Sequence record: OP870147.1
DNA: 64,000 nt
Source: Escherichia phage vB_Eco_F31
Strand: one strand, 5' to 3'
Both the position numbers and the translations under genes were made by a program. Positions 8 to 30,240 of this stretch are shown here, one piece after another. Numbering within the stretch: position 1 is the stretch's first letter; every line of letters begins with the position of its first letter. The notes beneath the pieces were generated by a model. It saw nothing but the letters and a program-made list of their open reading frames with translations. It searched no databases and had not been told where the DNA came from.

Positions 8-2221
8 TTATTTGGCCGCTTCCACGGCCTTCATGAATTTAACGATTTGAGCGACCTGTTCTTTAGAAAGAGTACCACGTCGTCCCATGTATTCTGACAC
101 AATATGATAATTGGTTTCAAATTCAATAACCATTTTATCATCATTATCGTAAGCATTATCTTTAAGCTTATCGAAAATTTTAGCACACAATTCTAACTTC
201 TTATTCAGGTCTGTATTAGTAGCACCTGCGAATCGATTCCATCCCCAGCGATTATTTACTGTTGAGAGTTTTGCAAAGTCTTTACTGATTTCTTTGTTCT
301 TAGAGCTAAAATACTTACTAAGGAAGTTAAGCTCTTCGTTACGAGTAATATGATTCAAATAAGGCTGTGCTCTACGACTTGGTGATACATACTCATCATA
401 ATCCACTTTATCAATTAGCGTAATATAGTCGTTAATTGATTTTTCGAACAAGCATTCTACTTCACCAAGTTTACGAACTTTCTTAGCAATCTGTGGACGG
501 ACTACAGTGAACTCTTTAATACCTGACAAATCAGCAATACGGGTCAAGAAATTGGAGTCATAGTTCAACCAACCTTTATCTGCGTCAAGACATTCAGCAT
601 TAGAACGATTACGAACTATAGCATAACCTTGGATTTCATCAGCTTCACTCGCTGGAATAAAGAGATCTTCCGATACCCAAACATCGTTTTCATTCTTAAA
701 GAACCGATGAGCACTTGGGGATTTAGGACGAGGCCCATTAGAACGAGTCTTGACTTCAATCCACGGCTTAACGATTTGTAAAAGCTCTGAAGTCTTGTAC
801 ATGTTAATATTGTCGCCATCAAAGATAGCTTTAAGGCGTTCCAGAAGTTTCATTGCATCTTCGTCTGTAGGGTCAACGAATAGTACGCTTTTACCAAAAC
901 CGCGTGGAACTTTACCGGTTAATTTAACCTCGTCTTTAGACATTTCAATTGAATTAAGAGCTCGCATTAATGGAACACGTCCCTTAACATCGTCAATAAC
1001 AATTTCAACGTTTTTAATGTTAATGCCAATCAGGCTGTTAATTGAAATGGTTGTTGATGAGCTACCACTTTCACGAATACGACGAAGACGAGGGGATTCA
1101 ACGATATCGTATACGACGCCAAGATTACACCATTCAGGCCCCATTTTAAAACGTTTGTACAACTCGGAATAAGTTAGTTGTTCTTTAGAGTATTTCAGTG
1201 ATTCAATATTAGACCCAGCCTTTTCCATGTATTTACGAGCTGTATAGCCAAGAGAATCAATTTCACGGAACACATGACGTGGGTATTTACAATCAATCCA
1301 TTTCTTAGAATCTTCAGCAAACAATTTAGCATCGATTTCTGCAACGCGTTTATGGATATTTGCTACTGTACGTTTATCAAATGACAATGCTTCACGAGAC
1401 GGGGCTACATCTAGTTCACCCATAGGGAATTTAATATAAGCTGTAGTGCATCGCGTCATCATCCATGTTTGTTCTTTAATAACACTTCCGATTGGATATA
1501 CAATACCACCATATACAGCCATGATATTACCACGTTCACCCCATGGAGCTTCCTTGGCCAAATATACATCGTCAAATTCAGGAAAGTATTTAATATCTTT
1601 AACACCGCGAACTTCTGCAATATCACCTAGAGGACGCATAACATATGCAATTTCAGATGCGAACTTTTCAAAATCTTCTGGGTTAACCGGTACAACTACT
1701 TCTACACCCGTACGGTCATCAGGGCCCATCTTATCTACGAAGGTTGGCTTAATCTGTGGACCACTGTCATCTTGATAGATTACGTAACCGCGAACTTCAC
1801 CGTTGTGATAAGACGTAAGGTTAAACGTATCGGTATATGCTAGTGGAGCTTTAGAGCCGAGTCCGAATCCACCAATGAAATCGTTACTCGATGTTTTAGT
1901 TGAAGCAAAATATGAGTTATAGATTCCTGGCTCTTCGTCATTACCTCTAATGGTGAAATCGCTCATACCAGGACCAAAGTCTCGAACTACAAAACGTGGG
2001 TCCAAACGACCTGGAGCCTGAACAATAAACTTATCAGTGCAACCATTAAGAATTTGCCCATCGATACAGTTTGTGATTAATTCACGTACACAAGCCAATT
2101 CTTTGTTTGTATAAAGGTCATTAGACAAAATCTTATAAACTTTGCTATTGCCTTGAATAGTAAATGCTGTGCTCTTACCGCCAGAACCAATAATCGTTTC
2201 TTTAGCCGTTTCAATAATCAT
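8..2221 (-). CDS. rIIA: rIIA membrane-associated protein
   Basis: 737-aa ORF with N-terminal GHKL-type ATPase motif (LITNCIDGQ); size and position at the start of a T4-like early region match rIIA. Confidence 0.8.
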   Translation of the reverse strand: MIIETAKETIIGSGGKSTAFTIQGNSKVYKILSNDLYTNKELACVRELITNCIDGQILNGCTDKFIVQAPGRLDPRFVVRDFGPGMSDFTIRGNDEEPGIYNSYFASTKTSSNDFIGGFGLGSKAPLAYTDTFNLTSYHNGEVRGYVIYQDDSGPQIKPTFVDKMGPDDRTGVEVVVPVNPEDFEKFASEIAYVMRPLGDIAEVRGVKDIKYFPEFDDVYLAKEAPWGERGNIMAVYGGIVYPIGSVIKEQTWMMTRCTTAYIKFPMGELDVAPSREALSFDKRTVANIHKRVAEIDAKLFAEDSKKWIDCKYPRHVFREIDSLGYTARKYMEKAGSNIESLKYSKEQLTYSELYKRFKMGPEWCNLGVVYDIVESPRLRRIRESGSSSTTISINSLIGINIKNVEIVIDDVKGRVPLMRALNSIEMSKDEVKLTGKVPRGFGKSVLFVDPTDEDAMKLLERLKAIFDGDNINMYKTSELLQIVKPWIEVKTRSNGPRPKSPSAHRFFKNENDVWVSEDLFIPASEADEIQGYAIVRNRSNAECLDADKGWLNYDSNFLTRIADLSGIKEFTVVRPQIAKKVRKLGEVECLFEKSINDYITLIDKVDYDEYVSPSRRAQPYLNHITRNEELNFLSKYFSSKNKEISKDFAKLSTVNNRWGWNRFAGATNTDLNKKLELCAKIFDKLKDNAYDNDDKMVIEFETNYHIVSEYMGRRGTLSKEQVAQIVKFMKAVEAAK

Positions 2222-2233
2222 ATTTTTCTCTCA

Positions 2234-2434
2234 TCACAAGTTACGTTTAAAAATTTCTGCCACTTCGAGAAGTTCTTCTTTAGTAGCTGTATCGGTTTGT
2301 ATTTTATATCGAATTTCTTTAAAGCGTTCTTTAAAGGACTCTGCTGACTCGATATCAAAAAATCTTTGGATAAGCCGGAATTCCCGGAGCACTGCTTTAT
2401 CAAAAAGTTCCAAGTCCACGTTATATGTTCTCAT
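2234..2434 (-). CDS. small hypothetical protein (rIIA.1 position)
   Basis: 66-aa ORF immediately upstream of rIIA, tightly packed. Confidence 0.45.
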   Translation of the reverse strand: MRTYNVDLELFDKAVLREFRLIQRFFDIESAESFKERFKEIRYKIQTDTATKEELLEVAEIFKRNL

Positions 2435-2526
2435 AATATTCTCTTCAGTAGATTCCTAGGGCACTATTACTAAAGACCATATAATTTATCATCTTATGTG
2501 TAATAGTGCCTCAGGCTATTCAGGAT

Positions 2527-3627
2527 TTACGCTGTGAAGATTTTATCCCACATCGCAACAACTGCATCTCGATTATACTTCTTCCATACTGCTTCAGCAC
2601 GTTTAACTCGAGCTTCGTATGTGTCAGTGAATTCTAATACAGCTTTTGTGTAAAGCGCAACTACTTCTTTCTTAGGAGTAGAGGAATCAATTTCTACACG
2701 CACAGTATCTGGGTCGTATTCGAATGTCGCATGAGGATAATCCTTAAAAACTAACTGGATTACAGGGACACCTTTAGAGATGGCTTCAATAGAACTATTC
2801 TCTACCGTACCTGTGTCAGGACACGTATTAATAAGTGCTTTAGCTGTTTTAAGACATTCCATAATTTCACTGTGTGGAGCATCAATAATAACAGGATATT
2901 TAGCTGGTGGTGCCCATTTGCTTGGACAATAACCAATACCATTTTCGCCTAGTGCTTTAATCGCTTCAAGAGCAACATCAGTACGACGCATTTTAGTGTC
3001 ATAACGTTGTGCACTAATAATCAGATCAGTCGCCGGAAGAACTTCAGGTTTCTCATTCAAACAAATAACCGGATAATCTTCGGCTTCAAACAACGGATTT
3101 GCTCGCCAATAATCATAATCGATTTTGTCAGTCAGACCTGAAGTCATATAACAATATTTGCGTTCAAATTCACGGAAGGCTTTAGTAGGAGCATAACTCT
3201 TACCGCCATTCTTATGAATTTGAATAGTTTGGTCCCAAATTTGAACAATACCACGAGATACCGGTTCAAATGGTGTTGCCATAAAATTCTTGTGAACTTT
3301 AGAGAGACCTGCGTCTTTAATTGCCTGAACGGTTAGTTTAGTCGGTTCCATAGTAACAACAAAATCATATTCATGGATGCCGGCTAGTTCAACAATCTTA
3401 CGAGCCATAGTATAACTCATACCTAGACTGAATTTAGTCAGATGACCAACAGGATGATGATTAACTTTCCAATCACCAAATGTGTCATTATCAAAACCGA
3501 TATAATCAATATCGGCACCAATAGAAACTAAATATTTCAACACATTTAAATGTACTGCTTCAAGACCACCTTGTACACGTTCAGGATTAAATGGGACTGC
3601 ACGAGATGGGATAAACATAACTTTCAT
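2527..3627 (-). CDS. GT-B fold glycosyltransferase, candidate hmC pentosyl(arabinosyl)transferase
   Basis: 366-aa ORF; N-terminal MKVMFIPS...GGLE and C-terminal G-x-VENSSIEAISKGVPVI resemble the GT1/GT4 E-x7-E donor-binding region; lies between rIIA and topoisomerase where T4 has no such gene. Confidence 0.55.
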   Translation of the reverse strand: MKVMFIPSRAVPFNPERVQGGLEAVHLNVLKYLVSIGADIDYIGFDNDTFGDWKVNHHPVGHLTKFSLGMSYTMARKIVELAGIHEYDFVVTMEPTKLTVQAIKDAGLSKVHKNFMATPFEPVSRGIVQIWDQTIQIHKNGGKSYAPTKAFREFERKYCYMTSGLTDKIDYDYWRANPLFEAEDYPVICLNEKPEVLPATDLIISAQRYDTKMRRTDVALEAIKALGENGIGYCPSKWAPPAKYPVIIDAPHSEIMECLKTAKALINTCPDTGTVENSSIEAISKGVPVIQLVFKDYPHATFEYDPDTVRVEIDSSTPKKEVVALYTKAVLEFTDTYEARVKRAEAVWKKYNRDAVVAMWDKIFTA

Positions 3628-3640
3628 AATTAAGCCTTAT

Positions 3641-3671
3641 TAAAATTAAAATGAAGCTCCCGAAGGAGCTT
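3641..3671 (-). terminator. hairpin terminator with UUCG loop downstream of gene 39
   Basis: AAGCTCC-TTCG-GGAGCTT on the minus strand followed by T-rich tract; overlaps the gene 39 stop. Confidence 0.5.
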
Positions 3672-5487
3672 AGGACATCCATTCTTTACGAAGTTCTGAA
3701 TCATCACCCATCAACATTTCAAAGAGTTCTTTCCAATTTTCAGGAAGTTTAACTACGTCGTACACAGGGTTCTGAATCATTTCACGATATTCTGACTTTT
3801 CAAGGGAGCCTAATCCCTTGATGTATCGAATACTATGCTTAGGCAGTGTATCTTTAACTTCTTCATACTCAGCTACAGTATAAAACCATTTTTGAGTTTT
3901 GCCAATTTGTGCAATAATTACAGGCGTTTTAACAAAGCGAATACGTCCTTGTTCAAACAATTCAGGCCAATTACTAAAGAAAGCAAGCAAAGCCGGATAG
4001 ATACTTCCAAGACCGTCATGATCGGCATCGGTCATAATTGCAATATTACGATAGTTCGTATTCTCTGCCTTTTCACCAAGAATAAGACCTGTGATAGCAC
4101 AGATATCAAAGAGCTCTTTGTTCTTCATCATATCAGCATATGACATACCCCAGCTATTCATCACCTTACCACGTAATGGGAATCCGCCGTGTAGTTCACG
4201 GTCACGAACATCAATGAGATAACCAATTGCCGAATCACCTTCTGTTAAGAACAATGTCGTATCTGCATCTTTACCACATTGGTTAGCTTTAATATGCTTA
4301 TGAACCTTAGCTTTAGTTGCCTTTTTAGCTGCTTTAGTTTCTGCAGCCTTTTCTGCTGCCAATTTACGAGCTAATGCTGCTTCAACAATAGGCATAATCA
4401 AGGCTTCGTTTTTAAGAAGTGCCTGAGCAATTTTCTTAGCATCCAATTGGATATGATTACGAATATCACCATACGTTGACGTTAAACGTTCTTTAGTCTG
4501 AGAATCAAAACGCATGTTGCTCATGTCTCTAATAAACATCAACATTGTGAGACATTCTTTAACACGAGCTTTAGTGACTTCAATACCCTTATATTTCTTT
4601 TTAATACCCGGCAAAAGATGTTCGCAGATATCATCCATTACACATTCAACATGATGACCACCATTTTTAGTATGGATATTATTCACATAAGTTAAATGAC
4701 GGAAGCCATCTGGTGATGTTGTGAATGCTATAGAGACTTTATCATTTTCTTGAATGATGTTATCTTCACCAAATTGTTTAGCAAATCGTTTAAAATTACC
4801 ATCAACCTTTTTACCATTAAATGTGAACTTGATATCAGGATAAACGACTGCCAATGTTTGAAGTCTGTCTAAAGTAATATCTAAATAAATTTGAGATAAA
4901 TTATGCTCTTCAAATGAAGAGAAATCAGGAGTGAAGATTACTTTAGTGCCTTTACCTTTAGATTTCTTAGAAGACCATGATTTGTTTTCCATTCCGTTTG
5001 AACAGTTAACAGTGATTTCATTTTCGCCATCTGACGTTATGCCTGTAAACAACGTAGAGAAGATATTAGTTAAACTACTCCCGACGCCGTTCATACCACC
5101 AGTCTTGCGTTCAGAGTCATCACCAAAGTTACCACCGGCCTTTGGAATAGTCCAGGCTGCTACAGGCCCAGGAATTTGTTCACCCGTTTGGTCGGTAACT
5201 AAACCTTGAGGAATACCACGTCCGTTATCTTCCACCGAAACTTGATTATTTTTAATTTGCACATCAATTTTATTTGCAAACTTAAATGATGTACGAATAG
5301 CTTCATCAACCGAGTTGTCAATAATCTCATCGATTAATTTAACCAGACCAGGAACATATTCAACTTGTTGATATTTACCAAACAAAAAACGCTCATGTGC
5401 TTCTTTAGCAGAAGAACCAATATACATACCACTACGTTTCTTAATATGTTCTACATCTGACAATACCTTAATTTCATTTTTAATCAT
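3670..5487 (-). CDS. 39: DNA topoisomerase II large subunit (GyrB-like ATPase + Toprim), single uninterrupted ORF
   Basis: 605-aa ORF with GHKL ATPase and Toprim-like motifs (GGxxGxG-like NGVGSS, DADxDG = TDADHDG); equals T4 gp39+gp60 fused as in several T4 relatives. Confidence 0.85.
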   Translation of the reverse strand: MIKNEIKVLSDVEHIKKRSGMYIGSSAKEAHERFLFGKYQQVEYVPGLVKLIDEIIDNSVDEAIRTSFKFANKIDVQIKNNQVSVEDNGRGIPQGLVTDQTGEQIPGPVAAWTIPKAGGNFGDDSERKTGGMNGVGSSLTNIFSTLFTGITSDGENEITVNCSNGMENKSWSSKKSKGKGTKVIFTPDFSSFEEHNLSQIYLDITLDRLQTLAVVYPDIKFTFNGKKVDGNFKRFAKQFGEDNIIQENDKVSIAFTTSPDGFRHLTYVNNIHTKNGGHHVECVMDDICEHLLPGIKKKYKGIEVTKARVKECLTMLMFIRDMSNMRFDSQTKERLTSTYGDIRNHIQLDAKKIAQALLKNEALIMPIVEAALARKLAAEKAAETKAAKKATKAKVHKHIKANQCGKDADTTLFLTEGDSAIGYLIDVRDRELHGGFPLRGKVMNSWGMSYADMMKNKELFDICAITGLILGEKAENTNYRNIAIMTDADHDGLGSIYPALLAFFSNWPELFEQGRIRFVKTPVIIAQIGKTQKWFYTVAEYEEVKDTLPKHSIRYIKGLGSLEKSEYREMIQNPVYDVVKLPENWKELFEMLMGDDSELRKEWMS

Positions 5488-5499
5488 GTTGTCTCCTCG

Positions 5500-5535
5500 T
5501 TATGAAGGTATTCTATCATCCGAAATCTAAAGCAA
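5500..5535 (-). promoter_or_regulatory. MotA-box middle-type promoter upstream of gene 39
   Basis: Minus strand TTGCTTTAG - 11 nt - TAGAAT directly after the terminator hairpin. Confidence 0.45.
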
Positions 5536-5551
5536 AAAGGGCCGAAGCCCT
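5526..5551 (-). terminator. hairpin terminator with UUCG loop
   Basis: AAGGGC-TTCG-GCCCTT followed by TTTTTGC on the minus strand; directly followed by a MotA-box-like promoter for gene 39. Confidence 0.55.
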
Positions 5552-5976
5552 TATTTAAATTTAATTTTCTGAAGTGTATCAATTGCAGCCAAACGCCCTT
5601 GTTCACTTTTAACTGTAATGACCACATCGCCTGATACGATCACCGAACCATCAACAAATTCTATAGAGCCTTTTTTGAAATCGACAGCTGTATCTGGTTC
5701 CTGAACTTCTTCAAAGAATTTAAATTCTGCACCATAAAGCAGAATATCACCTTGCATACTATGAATAGTTCGGCCATAATCGCCTACGGCTTCTACAGCA
5801 ATAACCGAAACACCGTAACCAATCATCTCTTCCACAATAAAATCTTTGGACAATAAAGTAGTATGCAGATTAGTATTAAGACGTTTACCAGTCGTATTAA
5901 GAATTCTCAAGAAATTATCTTCCTGTCCTTTGATAATACGATATTTCTTACCAACTTCAAAACCTTTAAAAGCCAT
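5551..5976 (-). CDS. hypothetical protein (goF position by synteny)
   Basis: 141-aa ORF downstream of gene 39; same size as T4 goF, not otherwise verified. Confidence 0.45.
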   Translation of the reverse strand: MAFKGFEVGKKYRIIKGQEDNFLRILNTTGKRLNTNLHTTLLSKDFIVEEMIGYGVSVIAVEAVGDYGRTIHSMQGDILLYGAEFKFFEEVQEPDTAVDFKKGSIEFVDGSVIVSGDVVITVKSEQGRLAAIDTLQKIKFK

Positions 5977-15297: not shown

Positions 15298-15819
15298 TCA
15301 GTAACCATTATCCTGGCGTTCAAAGTTGTGTTGGTTTTTCAGGTAGTAAAGTTTAAAGATTTCTTCAGCGGAAAGACCCAGACCTTGGAACATATTCAGA
15401 ACAAAGTGGAGGATATCAATCATCTCAAATTTAATTTCAAGCTGGTCTTCAGGAGACAGTTCATCGATACGACGATTTCGATATTCAGCATGTTGTGCTT
15501 TCCATGGCTTCCATACACTGCTGGCAGCTTTTTCGCCATTGGACATACCACCAAGTGAAGTCAGCAGTTCACGGAATTCATCATCAATATAATCTTTCTG
15601 ATTACGCAGCCAATCAACAACATCGCCAGCAGTGGCCAATTCATCAGGATGTTTGTTATGTTCAGGCTTGTCATTTGCCAGACGAACCTGTAAAGATTTC
15701 TGCATATCAAGCATTACCTGCAATGGGTCTTTATCTTCGTGAATCAGAGCATTAAAATAAGCTTCTTCTGCTTTATCAACACCAGAAATAAGCTGTGAAC
15801 ATTCGTTAAAGTGTGCCAT
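15298..15819 (-). CDS. 56: dCTP pyrophosphatase (MazG-like), gp56
   Basis: 173 aa; size and synteny next to soc and the primase. Confidence 0.65.
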   Translation of the reverse strand: MAHFNECSQLISGVDKAEEAYFNALIHEDKDPLQVMLDMQKSLQVRLANDKPEHNKHPDELATAGDVVDWLRNQKDYIDDEFRELLTSLGGMSNGEKAASSVWKPWKAQHAEYRNRRIDELSPEDQLEIKFEMIDILHFVLNMFQGLGLSAEEIFKLYYLKNQHNFERQDNGY

Positions 15820-23687: not shown

Positions 23688-24236
23688 TTAACGAGCCCAT
23701 TTGATGATTTCTGTAATCAAACCATTACGTTCGCTTGCATTAAATCCTATAACTTTGTTAGCACCATCATGATTAAGTAATTGATACGTTTGGATTTTGT
23801 TATGAATTGCAAACTCTTCAAAATGTGAAATGACTGTATTAAAACCGAATGAAGACAAAGTAATAAGGTCGTCTTCAAAACTTTCAGTCATTTCGTTACG
23901 TGTTAAAATAATTGTGAACACATCATGGTTTTGGCAAAGACGAACATAATCCTGCTCATAAACATCAAGAACAGAGGCCGCATCTTGTCGAATACGTCCA
24001 TAAACCCAGTTACTAATATATCCACGGTCTAACAGATAAATCTTAGTAGGGTCTAAATAATTCAACATCGTTTCGAAACAACCAACTTCATTTCGAGACT
24101 TAACATCGAAACGTCCATCAACTGTTCGTTTAGGGAAATCAATCTTTACATATCTTTCACTAATTTCCATTATGTCATTAATGAAAGTTGTTTTACCGGC
24201 ATTATCCGGGCCATCTACTAAAATAATTTTAGCCAT
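23688..24236 (-). CDS. P-loop kinase (NMP-kinase-like fold), substrate unknown
   Basis: 182 aa; N-terminal Walker A ILVDGPDNAGKTT; occupies the T4 beta-gt locus. Confidence 0.55.
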   Translation of the reverse strand: MAKIILVDGPDNAGKTTFINDIMEISERYVKIDFPKRTVDGRFDVKSRNEVGCFETMLNYLDPTKIYLLDRGYISNWVYGRIRQDAASVLDVYEQDYVRLCQNHDVFTIILTRNEMTESFEDDLITLSSFGFNTVISHFEEFAIHNKIQTYQLLNHDGANKVIGFNASERNGLITEIIKWAR

Positions 24237-24237
24237 T

Positions 24238-25137
24238 TTATTCCTCGATTACGACATCTTCGTATTTAGGTATATTATACGGCGAAGAAATTAAAGCATT
24301 AAAGTAGATGAACTCACCAAGACCTGGATGGAATACTTCTTCAGGATTTTCGAAATATTGAATCTTCGGACGTCCTTTAAGAATTTGATAGTACTCAGTT
24401 TTAGTTGGTTTAAAAATTCTAATCAACGCTTCTTCAGGATACTTATTTCTGTCAAAGCTACTATTTGGATCAGTTATATAAAGCGGTTGACCTAATTGAA
24501 TTGCACATTCAACCACTTGTTCAAAACGATAGCACGGGTCACTAATTCGAAATGGATGAAAAATACCATCTAGATGAATAGGAGCCAAATCACCTACAAG
24601 ACGCTGCATGATGGAAGGACGTATAACTTTCTGAGTTACGATAATCTTATTACCATCTGCACCTGCGTTAACCAGCACTTCTTTTTGACGTTCATTCAAC
24701 ACAGTAGTTTGAAGTGAACGATTAACTGACAACATATCGGTTTTTAAGAATTCGTCAATATAAAAACGTGGTTTATTAGGGTCTGCCGTGATATTGAAAT
24801 TGAATTCTACATCAAAAGCGCCGTCATATCCAGTGATATCTGTTATTAGAAAATCACAATCATAATAAGCAATTAATGAATCAACCACAAATTCATTTTC
24901 AGACCAGAAATATTTACGAGTGTTATACGCGTTATCTTTATACCATAATGGAACAAACTTAAATTCCGGGAAAAGACGTTCACATTCTTTAATATCAGAT
25001 GCATTACGTGGATATGTAATCACATCACCTGGATTAGCACGGTGCAAATGAAGTTGGAAGTTGCCATCCTTAAGGATAGCATACTGTCCAGTTTCATAAG
25101 ACCGCATACTCAAAATAGGTACGCGGAAAATAGCCAT
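24238..25137 (-). CDS. hypothetical protein at the beta-glucosyltransferase syntenic position
   Basis: 299 aa; no motif I can assign; 1-nt gap to the kinase and 1-nt overlap with gene 42. Confidence 0.5.
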   Translation of the reverse strand: MAIFRVPILSMRSYETGQYAILKDGNFQLHLHRANPGDVITYPRNASDIKECERLFPEFKFVPLWYKDNAYNTRKYFWSENEFVVDSLIAYYDCDFLITDITGYDGAFDVEFNFNITADPNKPRFYIDEFLKTDMLSVNRSLQTTVLNERQKEVLVNAGADGNKIIVTQKVIRPSIMQRLVGDLAPIHLDGIFHPFRISDPCYRFEQVVECAIQLGQPLYITDPNSSFDRNKYPEEALIRIFKPTKTEYYQILKGRPKIQYFENPEEVFHPGLGEFIYFNALISSPYNIPKYEDVVIEE

Positions 25138-25853
25138 TAGTCAAGGAATCCTTTAACATAATCAAAATCACGTTCAAACACATGGGCACTTACCATGGTA
25201 TGAGTATAATCACCAACTTCTACACCGCATTCGTTAGCGATATAATGAAGTAATTTTCCTTGGAGATAAAAATCCAACTGCATAACAACAGCACAGTTCT
25301 GAGAACGCATATGACAGTGGGTATAAAGCTTACCATCACGAATATAATAAGTCACTGAGTCAGTACATGGATATTCAAGCGTTTCGTCTGAATCAAGCAA
25401 AGCCTGATCAGAACTTTCTAGAATTTGGAACACAACTCTTCGGGAGTTAGGCTTCTCTTTAAGTTCTTTTAGAAGAGCTGGTAATTGGGCCACAATGCGA
25501 GGACCGTAGAAAGTGTTGAAGTTTGCAGGCAAAGCGTCTGATTTAGGTTTAGAAATAAATTTAGCGACATTAGGATATGCCTTAAACGCTTCTTCTGCAT
25601 CAGTACCACCAGAAATCATAAACTTCCAGAAGTCTTCGGCATATTCATAAGAGATGCGGTTAATACGTGGGTCGGTCATTTTGAATGTTGACGGAGTGTC
25701 AACAACTACTGTCATAGACCCAATTTCATTACAACGTCCAATACGAGAATCAGTTACGAATTCCGGGTTTTCTAAAATTTCACGATTGACTGCTTTAAAT
25801 GCGGCTTGAAAATCTGCGGCTTTGATATATTTCATTGTGTTATGTTTTCCCAT
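25137..25853 (-). CDS. 42: dCMP hydroxymethylase (thymidylate-synthase fold), gp42-like
   Basis: 238 aa; YPCTDSVTYYI (catalytic Cys) and RSQN motifs parallel T4 gp42. Confidence 0.65.
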   Translation of the reverse strand: MGKHNTMKYIKAADFQAAFKAVNREILENPEFVTDSRIGRCNEIGSMTVVVDTPSTFKMTDPRINRISYEYAEDFWKFMISGGTDAEEAFKAYPNVAKFISKPKSDALPANFNTFYGPRIVAQLPALLKELKEKPNSRRVVFQILESSDQALLDSDETLEYPCTDSVTYYIRDGKLYTHCHMRSQNCAVVMQLDFYLQGKLLHYIANECGVEVGDYTHTMVSAHVFERDFDYVKGFLD

Positions 25854-25895
25854 GTTTACCTCAATACAATTTATTATATACTCGATTCGTAAAGC

Positions 25896-26135
25896 TTATT
25901 TGAATTTCTTGGCAGTGTTGATATACCGTAAAGCTTCAGCATCGATACTTCCAAGAACACTATGAAGAAATGCATCAGCGTAGTATTCCAATTGAACAGG
26001 TTCTTTAATCACTTTAGCCGCTTTGGTTTCAAACAGGCCCATAAGGGCCTTTTTAAGAATTTGTTCGTTAGTGTTCAGTTTAATAGTCAAAATCTCTTCG
26101 TTAAGTTTATAATTAAAACTTTTTCTAGAAATCAT
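25896..26135 (-). CDS. hypothetical protein
   Basis: 79-aa ORF. Confidence 0.4.
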   Translation of the reverse strand: MISRKSFNYKLNEEILTIKLNTNEQILKKALMGLFETKAAKVIKEPVQLEYYADAFLHSVLGSIDAEALRYINTAKKFK

Positions 26136-27292
26136 TCCGGGTACCTCAAAGCGTCATCAGAGTTAGTTATATCAATAATAGATATAGAGTTTTCTGCTAA
26201 CCCGTTTTTAGATAATTGACGTTTATAATACCTTTCACAATATGTACACGTTGACCCACAGATTTCATTAGCACAATCAAAATCTGGATGTCTGAACCAC
26301 CTTTTTTCTAAAAAGCCATCTAACAAAGAGGTTTCAATATTTACTGTATGTGAAAACTCAGTTTCATTTTCAAGAGTGAAAATAGTCTCTAAAGGCTTCC
26401 ACAGTTCTAACAAATTACCTTCAAACTTTTCAGAAGCGTATGCTTCAAGAACTTTCAAAATGTAGTCTGTGCTACCTGTACGTCCTGAAACTTTGAATTG
26501 AGTGATACCGATATCATTATAAAGTTTCAAATCTTGAGGACGAACAAAACGAGTTCTCAACCAGTTAAATGGGTCTGTATCACGAGCTTTAATGCAGTGT
26601 TGCATTGGATACCCGTTTAAGGATTTAGCATCATCAGCTGTAACATCAGTACTATGGAAAATATAGCAAGAGTCACGATAGCTACAATGTGTTGTATACC
26701 CTTTACCAGCATTAGAACAGAACTCATTTACAAGAACTTCAAATATTATATTGTTCTTATTGCAAAACTCTGCTGCACGCTTCAGGAAAGAAACTGAACG
26801 GTTCTTATGAATTCCACAGCAGACCTTTTTGATATTGTATTGGTCATGTAAGTATTTGATTTGAGTTACAGCATCGACATGTAGAATTGTTGAAACTTCA
26901 ATCTCAATGTCTTTATTGACTTCACGAACAATTTCCATAACAACAGGGTTAGCGATAGTAATACGCCATACGCCTATTGACCAAAGATACTGAACATAAT
27001 CCTGAATAGCTTTCTTCTTCCACTCGACTAGTTCTCTTTTTGAACCAGGATTTATCGTGTTGAGTGTATAGTTAAAGCAAATACCTAATTCGTTACAACG
27101 TTTAACGTAATCTTCTAACATCTTTTTGTCAACGTCAGGAAGCCTAAAATCAGGTCTGGCTGCTACAAAAGCCATTTCTCTTGTAGAGCCGTATACTTCG
27201 TTTATCAAGCTATTAGGATAAGTTTTATTGAGCTCTACGATTTTATCAAGAAGAGCTAAATCAAAATTCGTTCCGATTTTAAAAGTATTCAT
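26132..27292 (-). CDS. Cys-rich putative Fe-S enzyme (possible U32-peptidase-like TIM-barrel family)
   Basis: 386 aa; central NEFCSNAGKGYTTHCSY and C-terminal CANEICGSTCTYC (CX3CX3CX2C) clusters. Confidence 0.4.
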   Translation of the reverse strand: MNTFKIGTNFDLALLDKIVELNKTYPNSLINEVYGSTREMAFVAARPDFRLPDVDKKMLEDYVKRCNELGICFNYTLNTINPGSKRELVEWKKKAIQDYVQYLWSIGVWRITIANPVVMEIVREVNKDIEIEVSTILHVDAVTQIKYLHDQYNIKKVCCGIHKNRSVSFLKRAAEFCNKNNIIFEVLVNEFCSNAGKGYTTHCSYRDSCYIFHSTDVTADDAKSLNGYPMQHCIKARDTDPFNWLRTRFVRPQDLKLYNDIGITQFKVSGRTGSTDYILKVLEAYASEKFEGNLLELWKPLETIFTLENETEFSHTVNIETSLLDGFLEKRWFRHPDFDCANEICGSTCTYCERYYKRQLSKNGLAENSISIIDITNSDDALRYPE

Positions 27293-27351
27293 TTTTTTTG
27301 CATCTCGCGTTAATTGATGCGATGGTTTTTTTGCAGGTCTTACTTAAATTA

Positions 27352-27738
27352 TTATAGGTTCGGTTTATATGATTTAAATGTTTCGAATTCGCCTTTATTC
27401 ATAAGAGCTTTGAATTCGTCAGGACGCATAGCTTTGTCGTCGATAATCCAATCATATACTGGTTTATGTGTTAGCAAATTATGGTACTTCAAGCCAATGT
27501 TTGCCAAGTTCTGAATCAGACTTGGGAGAATGTCAATTGCTATACGACCAGGACCTACTGACTTCATACCGCGCGCAGTGTAAAGCGTTATGGTATGCCC
27601 TGCATCATACAGGGCATTAATGGCAGACACCATTTCGACGTCCGGTTTGAAGTTCACGTAATCACGATTGTTATTCCACTCTGTTATACAATCATCGACA
27701 TCAAAACAAAGATTAAGCATGTTTTCTACACGATGCAT
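27352..27738 (-). CDS. HAD-superfamily phosphatase
   Basis: about 128 aa; HAD motif I FDVDDCIT near the N-terminus; start overlaps the upstream stop (TAATG). Confidence 0.55.
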   Translation of the reverse strand: MHRVENMLNLCFDVDDCITEWNNNRDYVNFKPDVEMVSAINALYDAGHTITLYTARGMKSVGPGRIAIDILPSLIQNLANIGLKYHNLLTHKPVYDWIIDDKAMRPDEFKALMNKGEFETFKSYKPNL

Positions 27739-29423
27739 TAGATTCGTTCCCATTGATGAGTGATATCGCCACCGATTGGACGATAGGAAACACCAGTTTC
27801 TTTATCAGTTAGTACCCATTTACCAGGATTTTTTGTAATCAGAGTAGCCGTTACAGGTTCTGCTACGTCATAACTAATAGAGCCGTCTTGAAGTACACGG
27901 CCCATGTTACGTAATTGCTTAGTCAGAAGTTCCATACCTTTATAATATGCGGCTACCGCTTTAAGTGGATTATTCTTGAAATAACCACCTAATGCAATCC
28001 AGATAATTGCCACTGCCAAATGATGATACTCGTTAAACGAACTCATCTTTCCATATTTGTAAACTAATGGATTGATGTTAATAGTCACATTACAAGTTGT
28101 TTCATCAATAGTAAACTGTCCCCAGGTCGGATTAGCGTTGAATTCATCATAACCTGAAACAGCGTAAAGCACTTTAGCTTCATCGTACAATTTTGGCCCG
28201 TAAATCTTAGTTTCACCAAAATATCCACGAGGGTCGATAAACTTGACTTCGCCATTATCAGTAATCATAGTATTACTGAAGTTCGGGTCACCATGAATAA
28301 CAGAGTACTGTCCCTGAGAACGGTTATGATAACGAATAAGGTGTTCTAAAGCTTGTTTCAGCATTGGCTTCAGACGTCCAATCTTAGTGTAGTTCACGTG
28401 TGTGATTTTACCAAATGAATCAATCAATGGTTGAATGCTTTCACAACGATCAATAACTTTCGTATAGAATTCTTTAGTGAAATCACGACGGACAGTTTCA
28501 GGACTTACAAAATAAGTGTCTGTGCTGAATTTCAGTGCATCTAAAATTGCATCAACAATTTGTGGACGAGCAAGACTTGATTTGGATTTAATATATTCAA
28601 ATGCCGGCTTACCTTTAATGCGTTCCATTTCAAAGTTATTTTCATTAACAGAAACTAACTGAGGAACTGAATCTGATTTCACTTTAAGATACCATGAAAT
28701 CTCATCTTTCTGAAGAGCTCGACCCTGTTCGGTTAATGCGAATTTAGTTACAGTTTCTTCACCAATTTCAACTGCATTAAAACTACGATTAAGTTCACGA
28801 ACTTCATGAGCTTTTTCAAGTTTAGGCATATCACCTAAATCAATTAGATTCATAAGCTCTGATTTATTGAATGCGCTGCCGTAAAGGAATTCTACGAAAT
28901 CACGTCCTTTGCAGTATTCATGAATTTCCTCATCAGTAGAACCCATGTAGAATTCCCAGTCTTTAAACTGATAAATTCCTACAACATTACCGCCTGTTTC
29001 ACCTACATTAGTGATATTTTCACCATCGAAATTATACCGACATTCATCACCCTTAACATAGATTGCGTTAACATTCCAAGACCATGAACCAAAATCGGGA
29101 ATAATATCACACCAGTTAACAATTACGTTATGGCCGTCTAAATCTTTGTGTAATTTAGCAAGAGCATAAGCAGAACCATACGCTTCATCAACTGTACGAA
29201 TAGTCACATTGAACCCTTCTTGCTCACAATAAGCTCGAACAGTTTCAGCAAATTTTGAATGAACTACTACAATAATTTCATCTGCGCCAAGGTCAGAATA
29301 AATTGTATACAAATTGCTCAGAATAGTGTCTTGTTTATAGTTAACAAGCACCTTAGGAATATGATGCGTTATTGGATACAAACGAGTTGCCAGTCCAGCA
29401 CCAAGAATAACAGCTTTTTTCAT
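27738..29423 (-). CDS. bifunctional sugar-1-phosphate nucleotidyltransferase (RmlA-like, N-terminal) / anomeric sugar kinase (ChoK/APH-like, C-terminal)
   Basis: 561 aa; N-terminal MKKAVILGAGLATRLYPIT (G-x-G-x-R, cf. RmlA ILAGGSGTRLYP); C-terminal VIHGDPNFSNTMI (Brenner HGDxxxxN) and FIDPRG. Confidence 0.6.
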   Translation of the reverse strand: MKKAVILGAGLATRLYPITHHIPKVLVNYKQDTILSNLYTIYSDLGADEIIVVVHSKFAETVRAYCEQEGFNVTIRTVDEAYGSAYALAKLHKDLDGHNVIVNWCDIIPDFGSWSWNVNAIYVKGDECRYNFDGENITNVGETGGNVVGIYQFKDWEFYMGSTDEEIHEYCKGRDFVEFLYGSAFNKSELMNLIDLGDMPKLEKAHEVRELNRSFNAVEIGEETVTKFALTEQGRALQKDEISWYLKVKSDSVPQLVSVNENNFEMERIKGKPAFEYIKSKSSLARPQIVDAILDALKFSTDTYFVSPETVRRDFTKEFYTKVIDRCESIQPLIDSFGKITHVNYTKIGRLKPMLKQALEHLIRYHNRSQGQYSVIHGDPNFSNTMITDNGEVKFIDPRGYFGETKIYGPKLYDEAKVLYAVSGYDEFNANPTWGQFTIDETTCNVTININPLVYKYGKMSSFNEYHHLAVAIIWIALGGYFKNNPLKAVAAYYKGMELLTKQLRNMGRVLQDGSISYDVAEPVTATLITKNPGKWVLTDKETGVSYRPIGGDITHQWERI

Positions 29424-29464
29424 GTTGAAGTCCTCATTGGTAAGTAGGAGTATTGTACACTATT

Positions 29465-29608
29465 CTAGTTAAAGCATTCATACTTTGCTTGTAGTCCAAT
29501 CATAATCCATCCAATTACAAGTGTTGGAATCATTACTGGAGCCGTTAAGCTCCAGTAGATAGTCATGACAAGCATCAATAGTAAAAGTCCTATTGTTATT
29601 GCTTTCAT
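29465..29608 (-). CDS. small hydrophobic peptide
   Basis: 47-aa ORF (MKAITIGLLLLMLVMTIYW...), ATGA-coupled to the SIS gene stop. Confidence 0.3.
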   Translation of the reverse strand: MKAITIGLLLLMLVMTIYWSLTAPVMIPTLVIGWIMIGLQAKYECFN

Positions 29609-30240
29609 TGTTCGCCTCGTAACATGGCACCTAGTGCACCGCCTGGATGGAACTTAAGGAAATCATTAGAGGTAAATCCACGTTCAGACGAAAGGTTGAT
29701 AGCGAACGTATCGATAAGCGCTAACAACAATGTAGTAGACATTGTCGGAGCTAAAGAGTTCTCGTCAACTTCTACCGCGATACCGGTACAGAACGTATAA
29801 TCAAAAAGAGCTTCGTATTCTTGTGGAATGTCAGGGTTACAATGTAACAGAATCTGTTTAACCTGAGGACGAATCATACGAAGATGTTTAGCAACACCTA
29901 TCATTTCTTCAGTCTTACCAGAACGACTGATGTGAACTAATACATCATTAGGTGCAATAAATCCTGCGTCACCATGAGAATAATGCCCAGTGTTCAAATA
30001 CATGCTAGGAATACCTAGTGAAGCAAAAGTCTCGGAAGCTTTAGTTGCGATATTAGCATTCTTACCAACACCTGTAATAATTACCCGGCTTTCATAATTA
30101 CTAAGTCCAGGGCGTCGAAGAGTTTCTAGAATAGCATTATATCGGGCAGGGTTTTGACTAATTACTTTAGCCATAGTGGCAAGAGATGAAGCTTGTTTTA
30201 CGATTGCGTCAATAGCGATAGTAATAGGAGTAGTTTTCAT
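29605..30240 (-). CDS. SIS-domain sugar-phosphate isomerase, KdsD/GutQ (arabinose-5-phosphate isomerase)-like
   Basis: 211 aa; ITGVGKNANIATKASETFASLGIPSMYLNTGHYSHGDAGF parallels the KdsD SIS motif [38 protein letters not shown]; no CBS domains. Confidence 0.65.
   Translation of the reverse strand: MKTTPITIAIDAIVKQASSLATMAKVISQNPARYNAILETLRRPGLSNYESRVIITGVGKNANIATKASETFASLGIPSMYLNTGHYSHGDAGFIAPNDVLVHISRSGKTEEMIGVAKHLRMIRPQVKQILLHCNPDIPQEYEALFDYTFCTGIAVEVDENSLAPTMSTTLLLALIDTFAINLSSERGFTSNDFLKFHPGGALGAMLRGEQ

What the first reader, a model, noticed from the sequence alone, without database searches (positions are those of the whole stretch)
2527..3627. Orphan GT-B glycosyltransferase beside rIIA: candidate DNA pentosyltransferase encoded 20 kb from the donor-synthesis island
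The 366-aa ORF has GT-B hallmarks (C-terminal E-x7-E-like region GTVENSSIEAISKGVPVI) and sits between rIIA and gene 39, a position where T4 has only small ORFs. With no alpha-gt or beta-gt in the window, this is the best candidate to transfer the sugar onto 5-hmC. The pathway would then be split across two loci.
Basis: partly seen in the sequence, partly recalled or inferred. Interest (0 to 1): 0.8.

Follow-up and report, generated by a model that had tools for sequence, protein, structure and literature searches.

The report
Known phage DNA arabinosyltransferase (second sugar)

Summary
The 366-aa ORF at 2527-3627 (minus strand) is real. It folds as a GT-B glycosyltransferase and lies between rIIA.1 and gene 39, 20 kb from the sugar-donor island. 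The window is a Mosigvirus (RB69-like). The ORF is 98.9% identical to RB69 ORF003c, which was proposed as the DNA arabinosyltransferase in 2018, and 98% identical to the crystallised "phage HY126 glycosyltransferase" (PDB 9IQZ, and 9IR0 with UDP).

Two parts of the interpretation need correcting:
- **Acceptor base.** The base is 5-hydroxycytosine, not 5-hmC. The window's ThyA homolog is 235/238 identical to RB69 gp48 (a proven 5hodCMP synthase) and carries its diagnostic Asn.
- **Not the only transferase.** A second GT-B protein (299 aa, 24238-25137) sits beside the ThyA homolog, where T4 has beta-gt. It occurs in 348 phage records across many genera. The gp3 family occurs in 211 records: one copy in Mosigvirus (di-arabinosylated), two in Acinetobacter phages (tri-arabinosylated), none in Thanatos (mono-arabinosylated).

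The Acinetobacter paralogs (DLP3 gp76 and gp77, 40-43% identical) extend arabinose chains on DNA from UDP-Araf in vitro. The ORF is therefore most likely the second, chain-extending arabinosyltransferase, as proposed in 2026. Already known; low novelty.

The parts
2527..3627 (-). 366-aa GT-B glycosyltransferase gene. It is the ortholog of RB69 ORF003c/gp3, Bas46 bas46_0103 and the HY126 glycosyltransferase (PDB 9IQZ/9IR0). Proposed second (chain-extending) DNA arabinofuranosyltransferase.
2758..2811 (-). Codons for residues 273-290 (GTVENSSIEAISKGVPVI), the nucleotide-sugar-binding signature helix of the C-terminal Rossmann domain. The motif is E276-x4-E281, with invariant G273 where canonical GT4 enzymes have the first Glu of E-x7-E.
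   Evidence: Invariant columns T272 G273 T274 V275 E276 ... E281 A282 I283 S284 G286 P288 V289. hhalign to P0136, which has ETAGYAVFE. Residue positions.
3635..3638 (-). Shine-Dalgarno-like AAGG, 7 nt upstream of the ATG.
   Evidence: Read directly from the sequence.
3654..3671 (-). 7-bp stem with a UUCG-type tetraloop (AAGCTCCTTCGGGAGCTT) overlapping the gene 39 stop codon, followed by an A/T-rich tract. It is terminator-like or an RNA-stabilising hairpin between gene 39 and the GT gene. No convincing sigma-70 promoter lies between it and the ATG, so read-through co-transcription with gene 39 is likely (inference).
24238..25137 (-). 299-aa compact GT-B protein (GT1). It is the intact equivalent of RB69 gp46:47 and homologous to DLP3 gp79 and Thanatos TH1_063. 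Proposed first, base-proximal arabinosyltransferase, and the pathway partner of the ORF under study.
   Evidence: AF2 pLDDT 93.8. Foldseek GT-B hits MshA, 2-epimerases and 9ir0. 179/182 and 115/116 identical to RB69 ORF047c and ORF046c. PHROG 3891.
25137..25853 (-). ThyA-family 5-hydroxy-dCMP synthase (RB69 gp48 ortholog). It defines the acceptor base as 5-hydroxycytosine.
   Evidence: PF00303 1.2e-15. 235/238 identical to RB69 gp48, with Asn at the T4 gp42 D171 position and Cys148/Asp179 equivalents kept. Function from PMC13326640.
23688..24236 (-). Thymidylate-kinase-like nucleotide kinase (RB69 gp45 ortholog).
   Evidence: PHROG 761 5e-45. Synteny with DLP1_076 and L005.
26132..27292 (-). 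U32-family protein (RB69 gp50 ortholog). Its role in the pathway is unknown.
   Evidence: PF01136 7e-11. 79% identical to Thanatos TH1_065.
27352..27753 (-). HAD-like phosphatase (RB69 gp51 / HY126 AfhF equivalent): Araf-1,5-bisphosphate to Araf-1-phosphate.
   Evidence: PHROG 1238. Function from PMC13326640 citing He et al..
27738..29423 (-). Bifunctional NTP-transferase and kinase (RB69 gp52:53 / HY126 AfhE equivalent). It makes UDP-arabinofuranose.
   Evidence: PF00483 8.5e-10 plus weak kinase-domain hits. Function.
29605..30240 (-). SIS-domain arabinose-5-phosphate isomerase (RB69 gp55 ortholog).
   Evidence: PF01380 8e-10. Function.
15298..15819 (-). MazG-like NTP pyrophosphohydrolase, the presumed dCTPase that removes canonical dCTP (RB69 gp28 equivalent).
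   Evidence: PHROG 173 1.6e-45. Role from Table 1 of PMC13326640.

Best explanation
The ORF encodes a soluble, UDP-sugar-dependent GT-B glycosyltransferase that works on phage DNA after replication. The phage replaces dC with 5-hydroxy-dC, made as 5hodCMP by the ThyA homolog at 25137-25853. The island enzymes convert ribulose-5-P to UDP-arabinofuranose. The compact island GT-B (24238-25137) puts the first arabinose on the 5-hydroxyl of the base. The 366-aa enzyme then transfers a second arabinofuranose from UDP-Araf onto that first arabinose, giving the di-arabinosyl-5-hydroxycytosine that dominates Mosigvirus DNA. Shown here: the fold, the near-identity to a UDP-bound crystal structure, the pathway context, the identity of the acceptor base, and the link between gene copy number and sugar number. 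Shown by others for the Acinetobacter paralogs: extension of an arabinose chain on DNA from UDP-Araf. Inferred: that this particular protein performs the second step, its linkage and stereochemistry, and that it acts alone.
For: - Identity: 98.9% to RB69 ORF003c. The ortholog is annotated 'putative hmC-arabinosyltransferase' in Bas46.
- Experimentally characterised relatives: DLP3 gp77 and gp76 are 43% and 40% identical over the full length. Together they convert di- to tri-arabinosyl-5hoC on RB69 DNA with UDP-Araf (PMC13326640).
- Gene neighbourhood: in Acinetobacter phages the two paralogs abut the island. In metagenomic locus L005 a family member overlaps the start of a GT1 homolog (48% identity) and is followed by the kinase gene.
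- Copy number against sugar number: Thanatos has no gp3-family gene and is mono-arabinosylated. Mosigvirus has one copy and is mono- plus di-arabinosylated: RB69, NP at 1:4, Bas46/47 'double'. Acinetobacter DLP3 has two copies and is tri-arabinosylated.
- GT1 is the universal partner of the island: 348 phage records in more than 10 host genera against 211 for gp3, and at least 138 against about 10 protein clusters. GT1 lies immediately downstream of the ThyA homolog, as beta-gt does in T4.
- Two 2026 papers propose the same order of action.
- A Bas46 'Aat' deletion mutant is viable and has altered sensitivity to a defence system, which fits an accessory step.
Against: - No held paper reports an activity assay or knockout chemistry for this exact protein or for RB69 gp3. 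The assignment to step 2 is labelled a proposal in PMC13326640.
- He et al. 2026 (Nat Chem Biol), the likely source of 9IQZ/9IR0, and Mahler et al. 2025 could not be read. Either could show something different.
- GT1 has never been shown to glycosylate 5hoC. Single DLP3 GTs were inactive on 5hoC DNA. The Thanatos GT1 homolog TH1_063 was reported to have UDP-xylose pyrophosphorylase activity instead.
- In a midpoint-rooted NJ tree the window protein lies outside both Acinetobacter paralog clades, so its function cannot simply be transferred from gp77.
- DLP3 needed gp76 and gp77 together, which raises the possibility that family members do not work alone.
Confidence: 0.72

Rival explanations
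1. The 366-aa enzyme makes the base-sugar bond itself, adding the first arabinose onto 5-hydroxycytosine. This is the Thomas 2018 / first-reader model with the base corrected. The 299-aa island protein would then do something else, such as sugar activation or the second step.
For: This was the original proposal for RB69 ORF003c. It is the GT that was chosen for crystallography. The Thanatos GT1 homolog was reported to act as a UDP-xylose pyrophosphorylase rather than a transferase. No GT1 transferase activity has been shown.
Against: About 137 phage records carry the island and GT1 but no gp3-family gene. They include Thanatos, whose DNA is nevertheless pentosylated on the base and whose only GT-B candidate is GT1. 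The gp3-family paralogs that have been assayed extend an existing sugar chain. Thomas et al. did not consider gp46:47, which is split into two ORFs (046c and 047c) in the RB69 record.
Confidence: 0.14
2. The enzyme works only as part of a complex with the island GT (or as an obligate oligomer), and the pair installs both sugars. On this view 'first' and 'second' transferase are not separable activities.
For: DLP3 gp76 and gp77 were active only together, and single GTs were inactive. In L005 the gp3-like and GT1-like genes overlap stop to start, which suggests translational coupling. The 9IQZ entry has chains up to at least H.
Against: In Mosigvirus the two genes lie 20 kb apart in different transcription contexts. 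GT1-only phages are mono-arabinosylated, so GT1 does not need a gp3 partner. The mixed mono/di product ratios (1:4 in NP) fit two sequential, separable steps.
Confidence: 0.09
3. It glycosylates a non-DNA acceptor (host envelope glycan, lipid or a protein), like its nearest bacterial structural relatives. Its link to DNA modification would then be coincidental.
For: The top structural neighbours after 9IQZ are small-molecule, lipid and polysaccharide GT4 enzymes: SPS, BshA, PimA, WaaG. One JGI member is auto-named 'glycosyltransferase involved in cell wall biosynthesis'. The protein is mildly acidic (pI 6.2).
Against: The family is found only in T4-like phages that carry the 5hoC/UDP-Ara island. 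Its paralogs act on DNA in vitro. T4 alpha-GT, a proven DNA enzyme, has a similar pI of 6.1.
Confidence: 0.03
4. Literal first-reader model: the enzyme transfers a pentose onto 5-hydroxymethylcytosine.
For: The older literature described RB69 DNA as arabinosyl-hmC, and the Bas46 annotation still says so.
Against: The phage's ThyA homolog is the 5-hydroxy-dCMP synthase type, not a dCMP hydroxymethylase: only 25% identity to T4 gp42, Asn at the diagnostic position, and 235/238 identity to RB69 gp48. NMR and MS studies showed the sugar is ether-linked directly to C5-O with no methylene, and called the hmC assignment erroneous.
Confidence: 0.01

Closest known systems
RB69 ORF003c / gp3 (NP_861693.1), Bas46 bas46_0103, and the phage HY126 glycosyltransferase (PDB 9IQZ apo, 9IR0 with UDP)
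   Same: This is the same gene: 98-99% amino-acid identity, the same 366-aa length, and the same position between rIIA.1 and gene 39. The ortholog has a solved GT-B structure with bound UDP.
   Different: Only a few substitutions. Nothing found here suggests a functional difference.
Acinetobacter phage DLP3 gp77 and gp76 (XEO41443.1, XEO41444.1), experimentally confirmed arabinosyltransferases 2/3
   Same: Same protein family: 43% and 40% identity end to end, sharing the TGTVE(N/H)xSxEAI signature. They use UDP-Araf and act on already arabinosylated DNA.
   Different: They are two tandem paralogs inside the island, required together, and they yield a third arabinose. The window has a single copy 20 kb from the island, and Mosigvirus DNA stops at two arabinoses. 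The window protein branches outside both paralog clades.
T2/T6 beta-glucosyl-alpha-glucosyl-hmC transferase (the enzyme that makes gentiobiosyl-hmC)
   Same: Functional analogy only: a second phage GT that adds a sugar to the first sugar on a modified cytosine in DNA. Gentiobiosyl modification is mentioned; the enzymology is from general knowledge.
   Different: Different sugar (glucose from UDP-Glc), different base (hmC), and no relationship to this ORF was tested or seen.
T4 alpha-glucosyltransferase (GT-B, PDB 1Y6F/1XV5) and T4 beta-glucosyltransferase
Bacterial retaining GT4 glycosyltransferases (sucrose-phosphate synthase 6KIH, BshA 3MBO/6N1X, PimA 2GEJ, MshA 3C4Q, WaaG)
   Different: Identity is 9-15%. 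No Pfam Glycos_transf_1 hit appears even at E=10. The first Glu of E-x7-E is replaced by an invariant Gly. The acceptor is a sugar on DNA and the donor is a furanose.

Membership tests
GT-B fold glycosyltransferase superfamily | Two Rossmann-like alpha/beta domains with an interdomain cleft | tested here: met
GT-B fold glycosyltransferase superfamily | Nucleotide-sugar donor bound by the C-terminal domain | tested here: met
   The 98%-identical ortholog was crystallised with UDP (9IR0). The invariant C-terminal residues R208, R214, E276 and E281 are conserved.
CAZy GT4 / Pfam Glycos_transf_1 (PF00534) retaining glycosyltransferases | Sequence match to the family profile above threshold | tested here: not met
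   Pfam returns 0 families even at E<=10. NCBIfam returns 0. There is only a weak PHROG 2170 'glycosyltransferase' hit at E=0.074.
CAZy GT4 / Pfam Glycos_transf_1 (PF00534) retaining glycosyltransferases | E-x7-E signature motif | tested here: not met
   The motif is E276-x4-E281. The position 8 residues before E281 is an invariant Gly. The distant relative P0136 has the canonical ETAGYAVFE, and its first E aligns to G273.
CAZy GT4 / Pfam Glycos_transf_1 (PF00534) retaining glycosyltransferases | Retaining stereochemistry | not testable with these tools
   PMC13326640 labels gp3 a 'beta-arabinosyltransferase' but states that the stereochemistry is only proposed.
Phage gp3-type DNA arabinosyltransferase family (RB69 gp3 / HY126 GT / DLP3 gp76-77; PHROG 8302) | Full-length sequence homology to the family | tested here: met
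   PHROG 8302 at 2e-222 over residues 1-366. 98.9% identity to RB69 ORF003c. 43% and 40% identity to DLP3 gp77 and gp76.
Phage gp3-type DNA arabinosyltransferase family (RB69 gp3 / HY126 GT / DLP3 gp76-77; PHROG 8302) | Encoded in a genome that also has the 5hodCMP synthase, the UDP-Araf synthesis genes and the GT1 transferase | tested here: met
   All of these are present in the window at 23688-30240.
Phage gp3-type DNA arabinosyltransferase family (RB69 gp3 / HY126 GT / DLP3 gp76-77; PHROG 8302) | Transfers arabinofuranose from UDP-Araf to arabinosylated 5hoC in DNA | not testable with these tools
   This has been shown only for DLP3 gp76+gp77 acting together. It is a proposal for RB69 gp3.
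T4 alpha-glucosyltransferase family | Sequence homology to T4 a-gt | tested here: not met
T4 beta-glucosyltransferase family | Sequence or close structural homology to T4 b-gt | tested here: not met

The most novel reading that the evidence does not exclude
The gp3 family may be a mechanistic outlier: an inverting (beta-linkage-forming) furanosyltransferase built on a scaffold whose nearest structural relatives are all retaining GT4 enzymes. On this reading, the family-invariant replacement of the first Glu of E-x7-E by Gly273, and the shifted Glu276, would be the adaptation to a UDP-arabinofuranose donor and a sugar-on-DNA acceptor. This rests on the motif deviation found here and on the 'beta-arabinosyltransferase 2' label in PMC13326640, which its authors call a proposal. 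He et al. 2026 may already have settled the point with the UDP complex.
Probability: 0.25. Interest if true: 0.4.

Novelty: already known. Interest (0 to 1): 0.15.

Why it matters
Arabinosylated 5-hydroxycytosine protects Mosigvirus and related phage DNA from restriction enzymes, some CRISPR-Cas systems and DNA glycosylases, and it exposes the DNA to type IV systems such as BrxU. The number of arabinoses changes which defences work. Knowing which transferase adds which sugar therefore matters for phage engineering, for choosing phages for therapy, and for sequencing such genomes. For this scan, the result is that the finding rediscovers a published gene. The useful outcome is the corrected reading (5hoC rather than hmC; second sugar rather than first; two GT-B genes rather than one), plus an independent phyletic and synteny argument for the published but still unproven order of action.

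Tried and rejected
- Pfam and NCBIfam scans of the ORF found nothing. The family is invisible to curated profiles.
- BLAST of T4 alpha-gt and beta-gt against the window and against both GTs found no similarity.
- Direct comparison of the 366-aa and 299-aa proteins found no sequence similarity (E=1.1). They are not recent paralogs.
- I looked for a remnant of the GT gene at the rIIA.1-39 junction of JS98, a GT1-only Dhakavirus. There is none, only an unrelated, unannotated 103-aa ORF. Loss of the gene from that lineage is therefore not supported.
- I looked for direct repeats or a mobile-element signature flanking the gene. Only short, chance-level repeats turned up.
- The sigma-70 promoter scan of 2100-5700 found fewer sites than in shuffled sequence (9 against 13.5) and none placed to drive the gene.
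- I tested whether Thanatos TH1_065 (378 aa, at the position of the gp3-like genes in DLP3) is a hidden gp3 relative. It is not: it is the U32-like protein (79% identity to window 26132-27292; hhalign probability 0.1% against the gp3 profile).
- The context of the metagenomic member P0129 (L004) shows T4-like genes but no island genes within 4.5 kb, so it is uninformative.
- JK45 looked like a natural disruption of the gene, but it has an intact copy plus an extra 411-bp ORF.
- He et al. 2026 (doi 10.1038/s41589-026-02150-z) and Mahler et al. 2025 (PMID 40578341) are not held. A search for the PDB codes returned only unrelated chemistry papers.

Full report
**Observation.** The ORF is present exactly as described: 2527..3627 on the minus strand, ATG start, 366 aa. 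It is flanked by rIIA (8..2221), a 66-aa rIIA.1-like ORF (2234..2434) and a fused 605-aa topoisomerase II large-subunit gene 39 (3670..5487). It has an AAGG Shine-Dalgarno-like sequence 7 nt before the ATG. A UUCG-loop hairpin overlaps the gene 39 stop codon just upstream. The quoted peptide is residues 273-290, and the ORF start lies 20,061 bp from the near end of the sugar island. T4 alpha-gt and beta-gt have no detectable homolog anywhere in the window (best tblastn E > 1).

**What the window is.** The first 6 kb are 97.5-98.2% identical to many Mosigvirus genomes, including APCEc01, moskry, HY126 and BASEL phage Bas46/ChristianSchoenbein. In Bas46 the orthologous gene is annotated 'putative hmC-arabinosyltransferase'. 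The protein is 98.9% identical to RB69 ORF003c. An identical sequence is on record from phage vB_Eco_F31.

**The motif.** In the family alignments T272-G273-T274-V275-E276 and E281-A-I-S-x-G-x-P-V are invariant. In an hhalign alignment to the only distant relative found (P0136, probability 96%), the canonical ETAGYAVFE places its first Glu on G273.

**The acceptor base is not hmC.** The island ThyA homolog (25137..25853) matches T4 gp42 only weakly (25% identity, E=1.6e-10). It is 235/238 identical to RB69 gp48. It has Asn where T4 gp42 has Asp171 (E. coli ThyA D169) and retains the Cys148 and Asp179 equivalents. Lee et al. (NAR 2026, PMC13326640) showed that RB69 gp48 makes 5-hydroxy-dCMP. 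They also showed that RB69 DNA carries mono- and di-arabinose ether-linked to 5-hydroxycytosine, and that D169N is the diagnostic signature. The Durham Collection paper found 5-ara-dC and 5-ara-ara-dC at 1:4 in Mosigvirus NP and calls the earlier hmC assignment erroneous. Bas46 and Bas47 are described as doubly arabinosylated.

**The ORF is not the only transferase.** The window's island (23688..30240) contains the following genes:
- a kinase-like gene;
- a 299-aa ORF;
- the ThyA homolog;
- a U32-like protein;
- a HAD-like phosphatase;
- an NTP-transferase/kinase fusion;
- a SIS isomerase.

The 299-aa ORF (24238..25137) is the intact form of RB69 gp46:47, which is split in the RB69 record (179/182 and 115/116 identical residues). 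It folds confidently (pLDDT 93.8). It matches GT-B superfamily structures: MshA, UDP-GlcNAc 2-epimerases, BGluT, and 9IR0 itself at E=7.6e-5. It has no sequence similarity to the 366-aa protein. It lies immediately downstream of the ThyA homolog, which is the position beta-gt occupies after gene 42 in T4.

**Which enzyme does which step.** Three independent lines agree.
- *Distribution.* GT1 is found in 348 phage records: Escherichia 176, Acinetobacter 57, Klebsiella 26, Shigella 15, Serratia 14, and also Enterobacter, Proteus, Yersinia, Edwardsiella, Pectobacterium, Erwinia and Shewanella Thanatos. It forms at least 138 protein clusters. The gp3 family is found in 211 records, limited to Mosigvirus-type coliphages (one place each) and Acinetobacter phages (two places each). 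It has only about 10 clusters, and 11 representatives among 1.84 billion proteins.
- *Copy number tracks sugar number.* Thanatos has no gp3-family gene: its 378-aa TH1_065 is the U32-like protein. It is mono-arabinosylated. Mosigvirus has one copy and stops at two arabinoses. DLP3 has two copies and reaches three.
- *Biochemistry of the nearest characterised relatives.* DLP3 gp77 and gp76 are identical in sequence to DLP1_075 and DLP1_074. They are 43% and 40% identical to the window protein over the full length. Together they add a third arabinose to RB69 DNA from UDP-Araf.

In Acinetobacter phages the two paralogs abut the island. In a metagenomic T4-like contig a family member overlaps the start of a GT1 homolog and is followed by the kinase gene. 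The link to the pathway therefore does not depend on the Mosigvirus arrangement. Lee et al. and the Durham paper both propose GT1 first and gp3 second.

**Caveats.**
- The step assignment for this protein is still a proposal in everything I could read.
- GT1 has no demonstrated transferase activity. Single DLP3 GTs were inactive on 5hoC DNA.
- The Thanatos GT1 homolog was reported to behave as a UDP-xylose pyrophosphorylase. That study's transferase assay used unmodified plasmid DNA, so it does not bear on the question.
- In a rough NJ tree the window protein branches outside the two Acinetobacter paralog clades, which are 53-57% identical to each other and 41-44% identical to it. It is a co-ortholog of both rather than the ortholog of gp77.
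- The co-dependence of gp76 and gp77 leaves room for models in which the enzymes work as a complex.
A Bas46 'Aat' deletion is viable and changes sensitivity to a defence system, but the citing text does not say which gene was deleted.

**Locus history.** The rIIA.1-39 junction is a variable cargo site:
- T4 has gene 60, 60.1 and a defective mobA there, with the topoisomerase gene split.
- JS98 has a 588-bp unannotated stretch with an unrelated 103-aa ORF and no GT remnant.
- Mosigvirus has the GT gene.

Nucleotide homology between the window and JS98 stops near 2404 and resumes near 3670. No flanking repeats or mobile-element signatures were found.

**Verdict.** It is wrong on the acceptor base and probably on the step. 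The whole story is already in the literature, from the 2018 proposal to the 2025 PDB entries and the 2026 papers that revised the chemistry and the order of action. Novelty is 'already known' and interest is low. The residual open point is direct proof of the step, the linkage and the stereochemistry for this enzyme, and whether its non-canonical E-x4-E site reflects an inverting furanosyl transfer.

Noticed in passing
window 26132-27292 (-): The U32-family protein of the island is 79% identical to Thanatos TH1_065. That is far more conserved than the neighbouring GT1 (47.5%). It is absent from the Acinetobacter DLP1/DLP3 island. It gives a faint NCBIfam hit to UbiU (E=9e-4, far below the cutoff). 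U32 proteins such as UbiU/V, RlhA and TrhP are O2-independent hydroxylases, and RlhA makes 5-hydroxycytidine in rRNA (general knowledge). This could be an anaerobic route to 5-hydroxycytosine that parallels the O2- and flavin-dependent ThyA homolog. Published annotation calls it a 'sugar or heterocycle reductase'.
   Followed up: partly
L013 4495-5397 (Thanatos TH1_063), homolog of window 24238-25137: A GT-B-fold protein of the GT1 family is reported in PMC12838424 to have UDP-xylose pyrophosphorylase activity in vitro. That is unexpected for this fold and conflicts with its proposed role as the first arabinosyltransferase. The NTP-transferase domain is actually in TH1_060.
   Followed up: partly
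window 2455-2515: A 16-nt inverted repeat (CCTAGGGCACTATTAC / GTAATAGTGCCTCAGG, 88% complementary, 29-nt spacer) lies between the GT stop codon and the rIIA.1-like ORF. No T-run follows it on the coding strand, so it is not a classic terminator. Its function is unknown.
   Followed up: no
L008 (Shigella phage JK45, MK962757.1) 801-2404: JK45 has an intact 1101-bp GT gene followed by an extra 411-bp ORF that also matches the GT query. This looks like a partial tandem duplication of the 3' part of the gene. JK45 is also filed under Tequatrovirus although this region is Mosigvirus-like.
   Followed up: partly
L011 (JS98, NC_010105.1) 2437-3024: The 588-bp 'empty' interval between rIIA.1 and gene 39 in JS98 contains an unannotated 103-aa minus-strand ORF unrelated to the GT. 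The rIIA.1-39 junction carries different cargo in T4, Dhakavirus and Mosigvirus.
   Followed up: partly
OZ038340.1 'Tegunavirus sp. BRC001' 142623-146354: This record carries the Acinetobacter-phage-type GT1-kinase-GT-GT cluster (78% nucleotide identity to DLP1). Its taxon label therefore looks wrong, and it accounts for the single 'Tegunavirus' gp3-family hit.
   Followed up: partly
L010 (RB69, NC_004928.1) 1501-2401; window 24238-25137: RB69 ORF047c and ORF046c are the two halves of one gene that is intact in this window (299 aa). This is consistent with the frameshift sequencing error noted in PMC13326640.
   Followed up: yes
window 3670-5487 (-): Gene 39 here is the unsplit 605-aa form, covering the T4 gp39 and gp60 regions. 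The phage therefore lacks the T4 gene 60 split and its 50-nt translational bypass element.
   Followed up: partly
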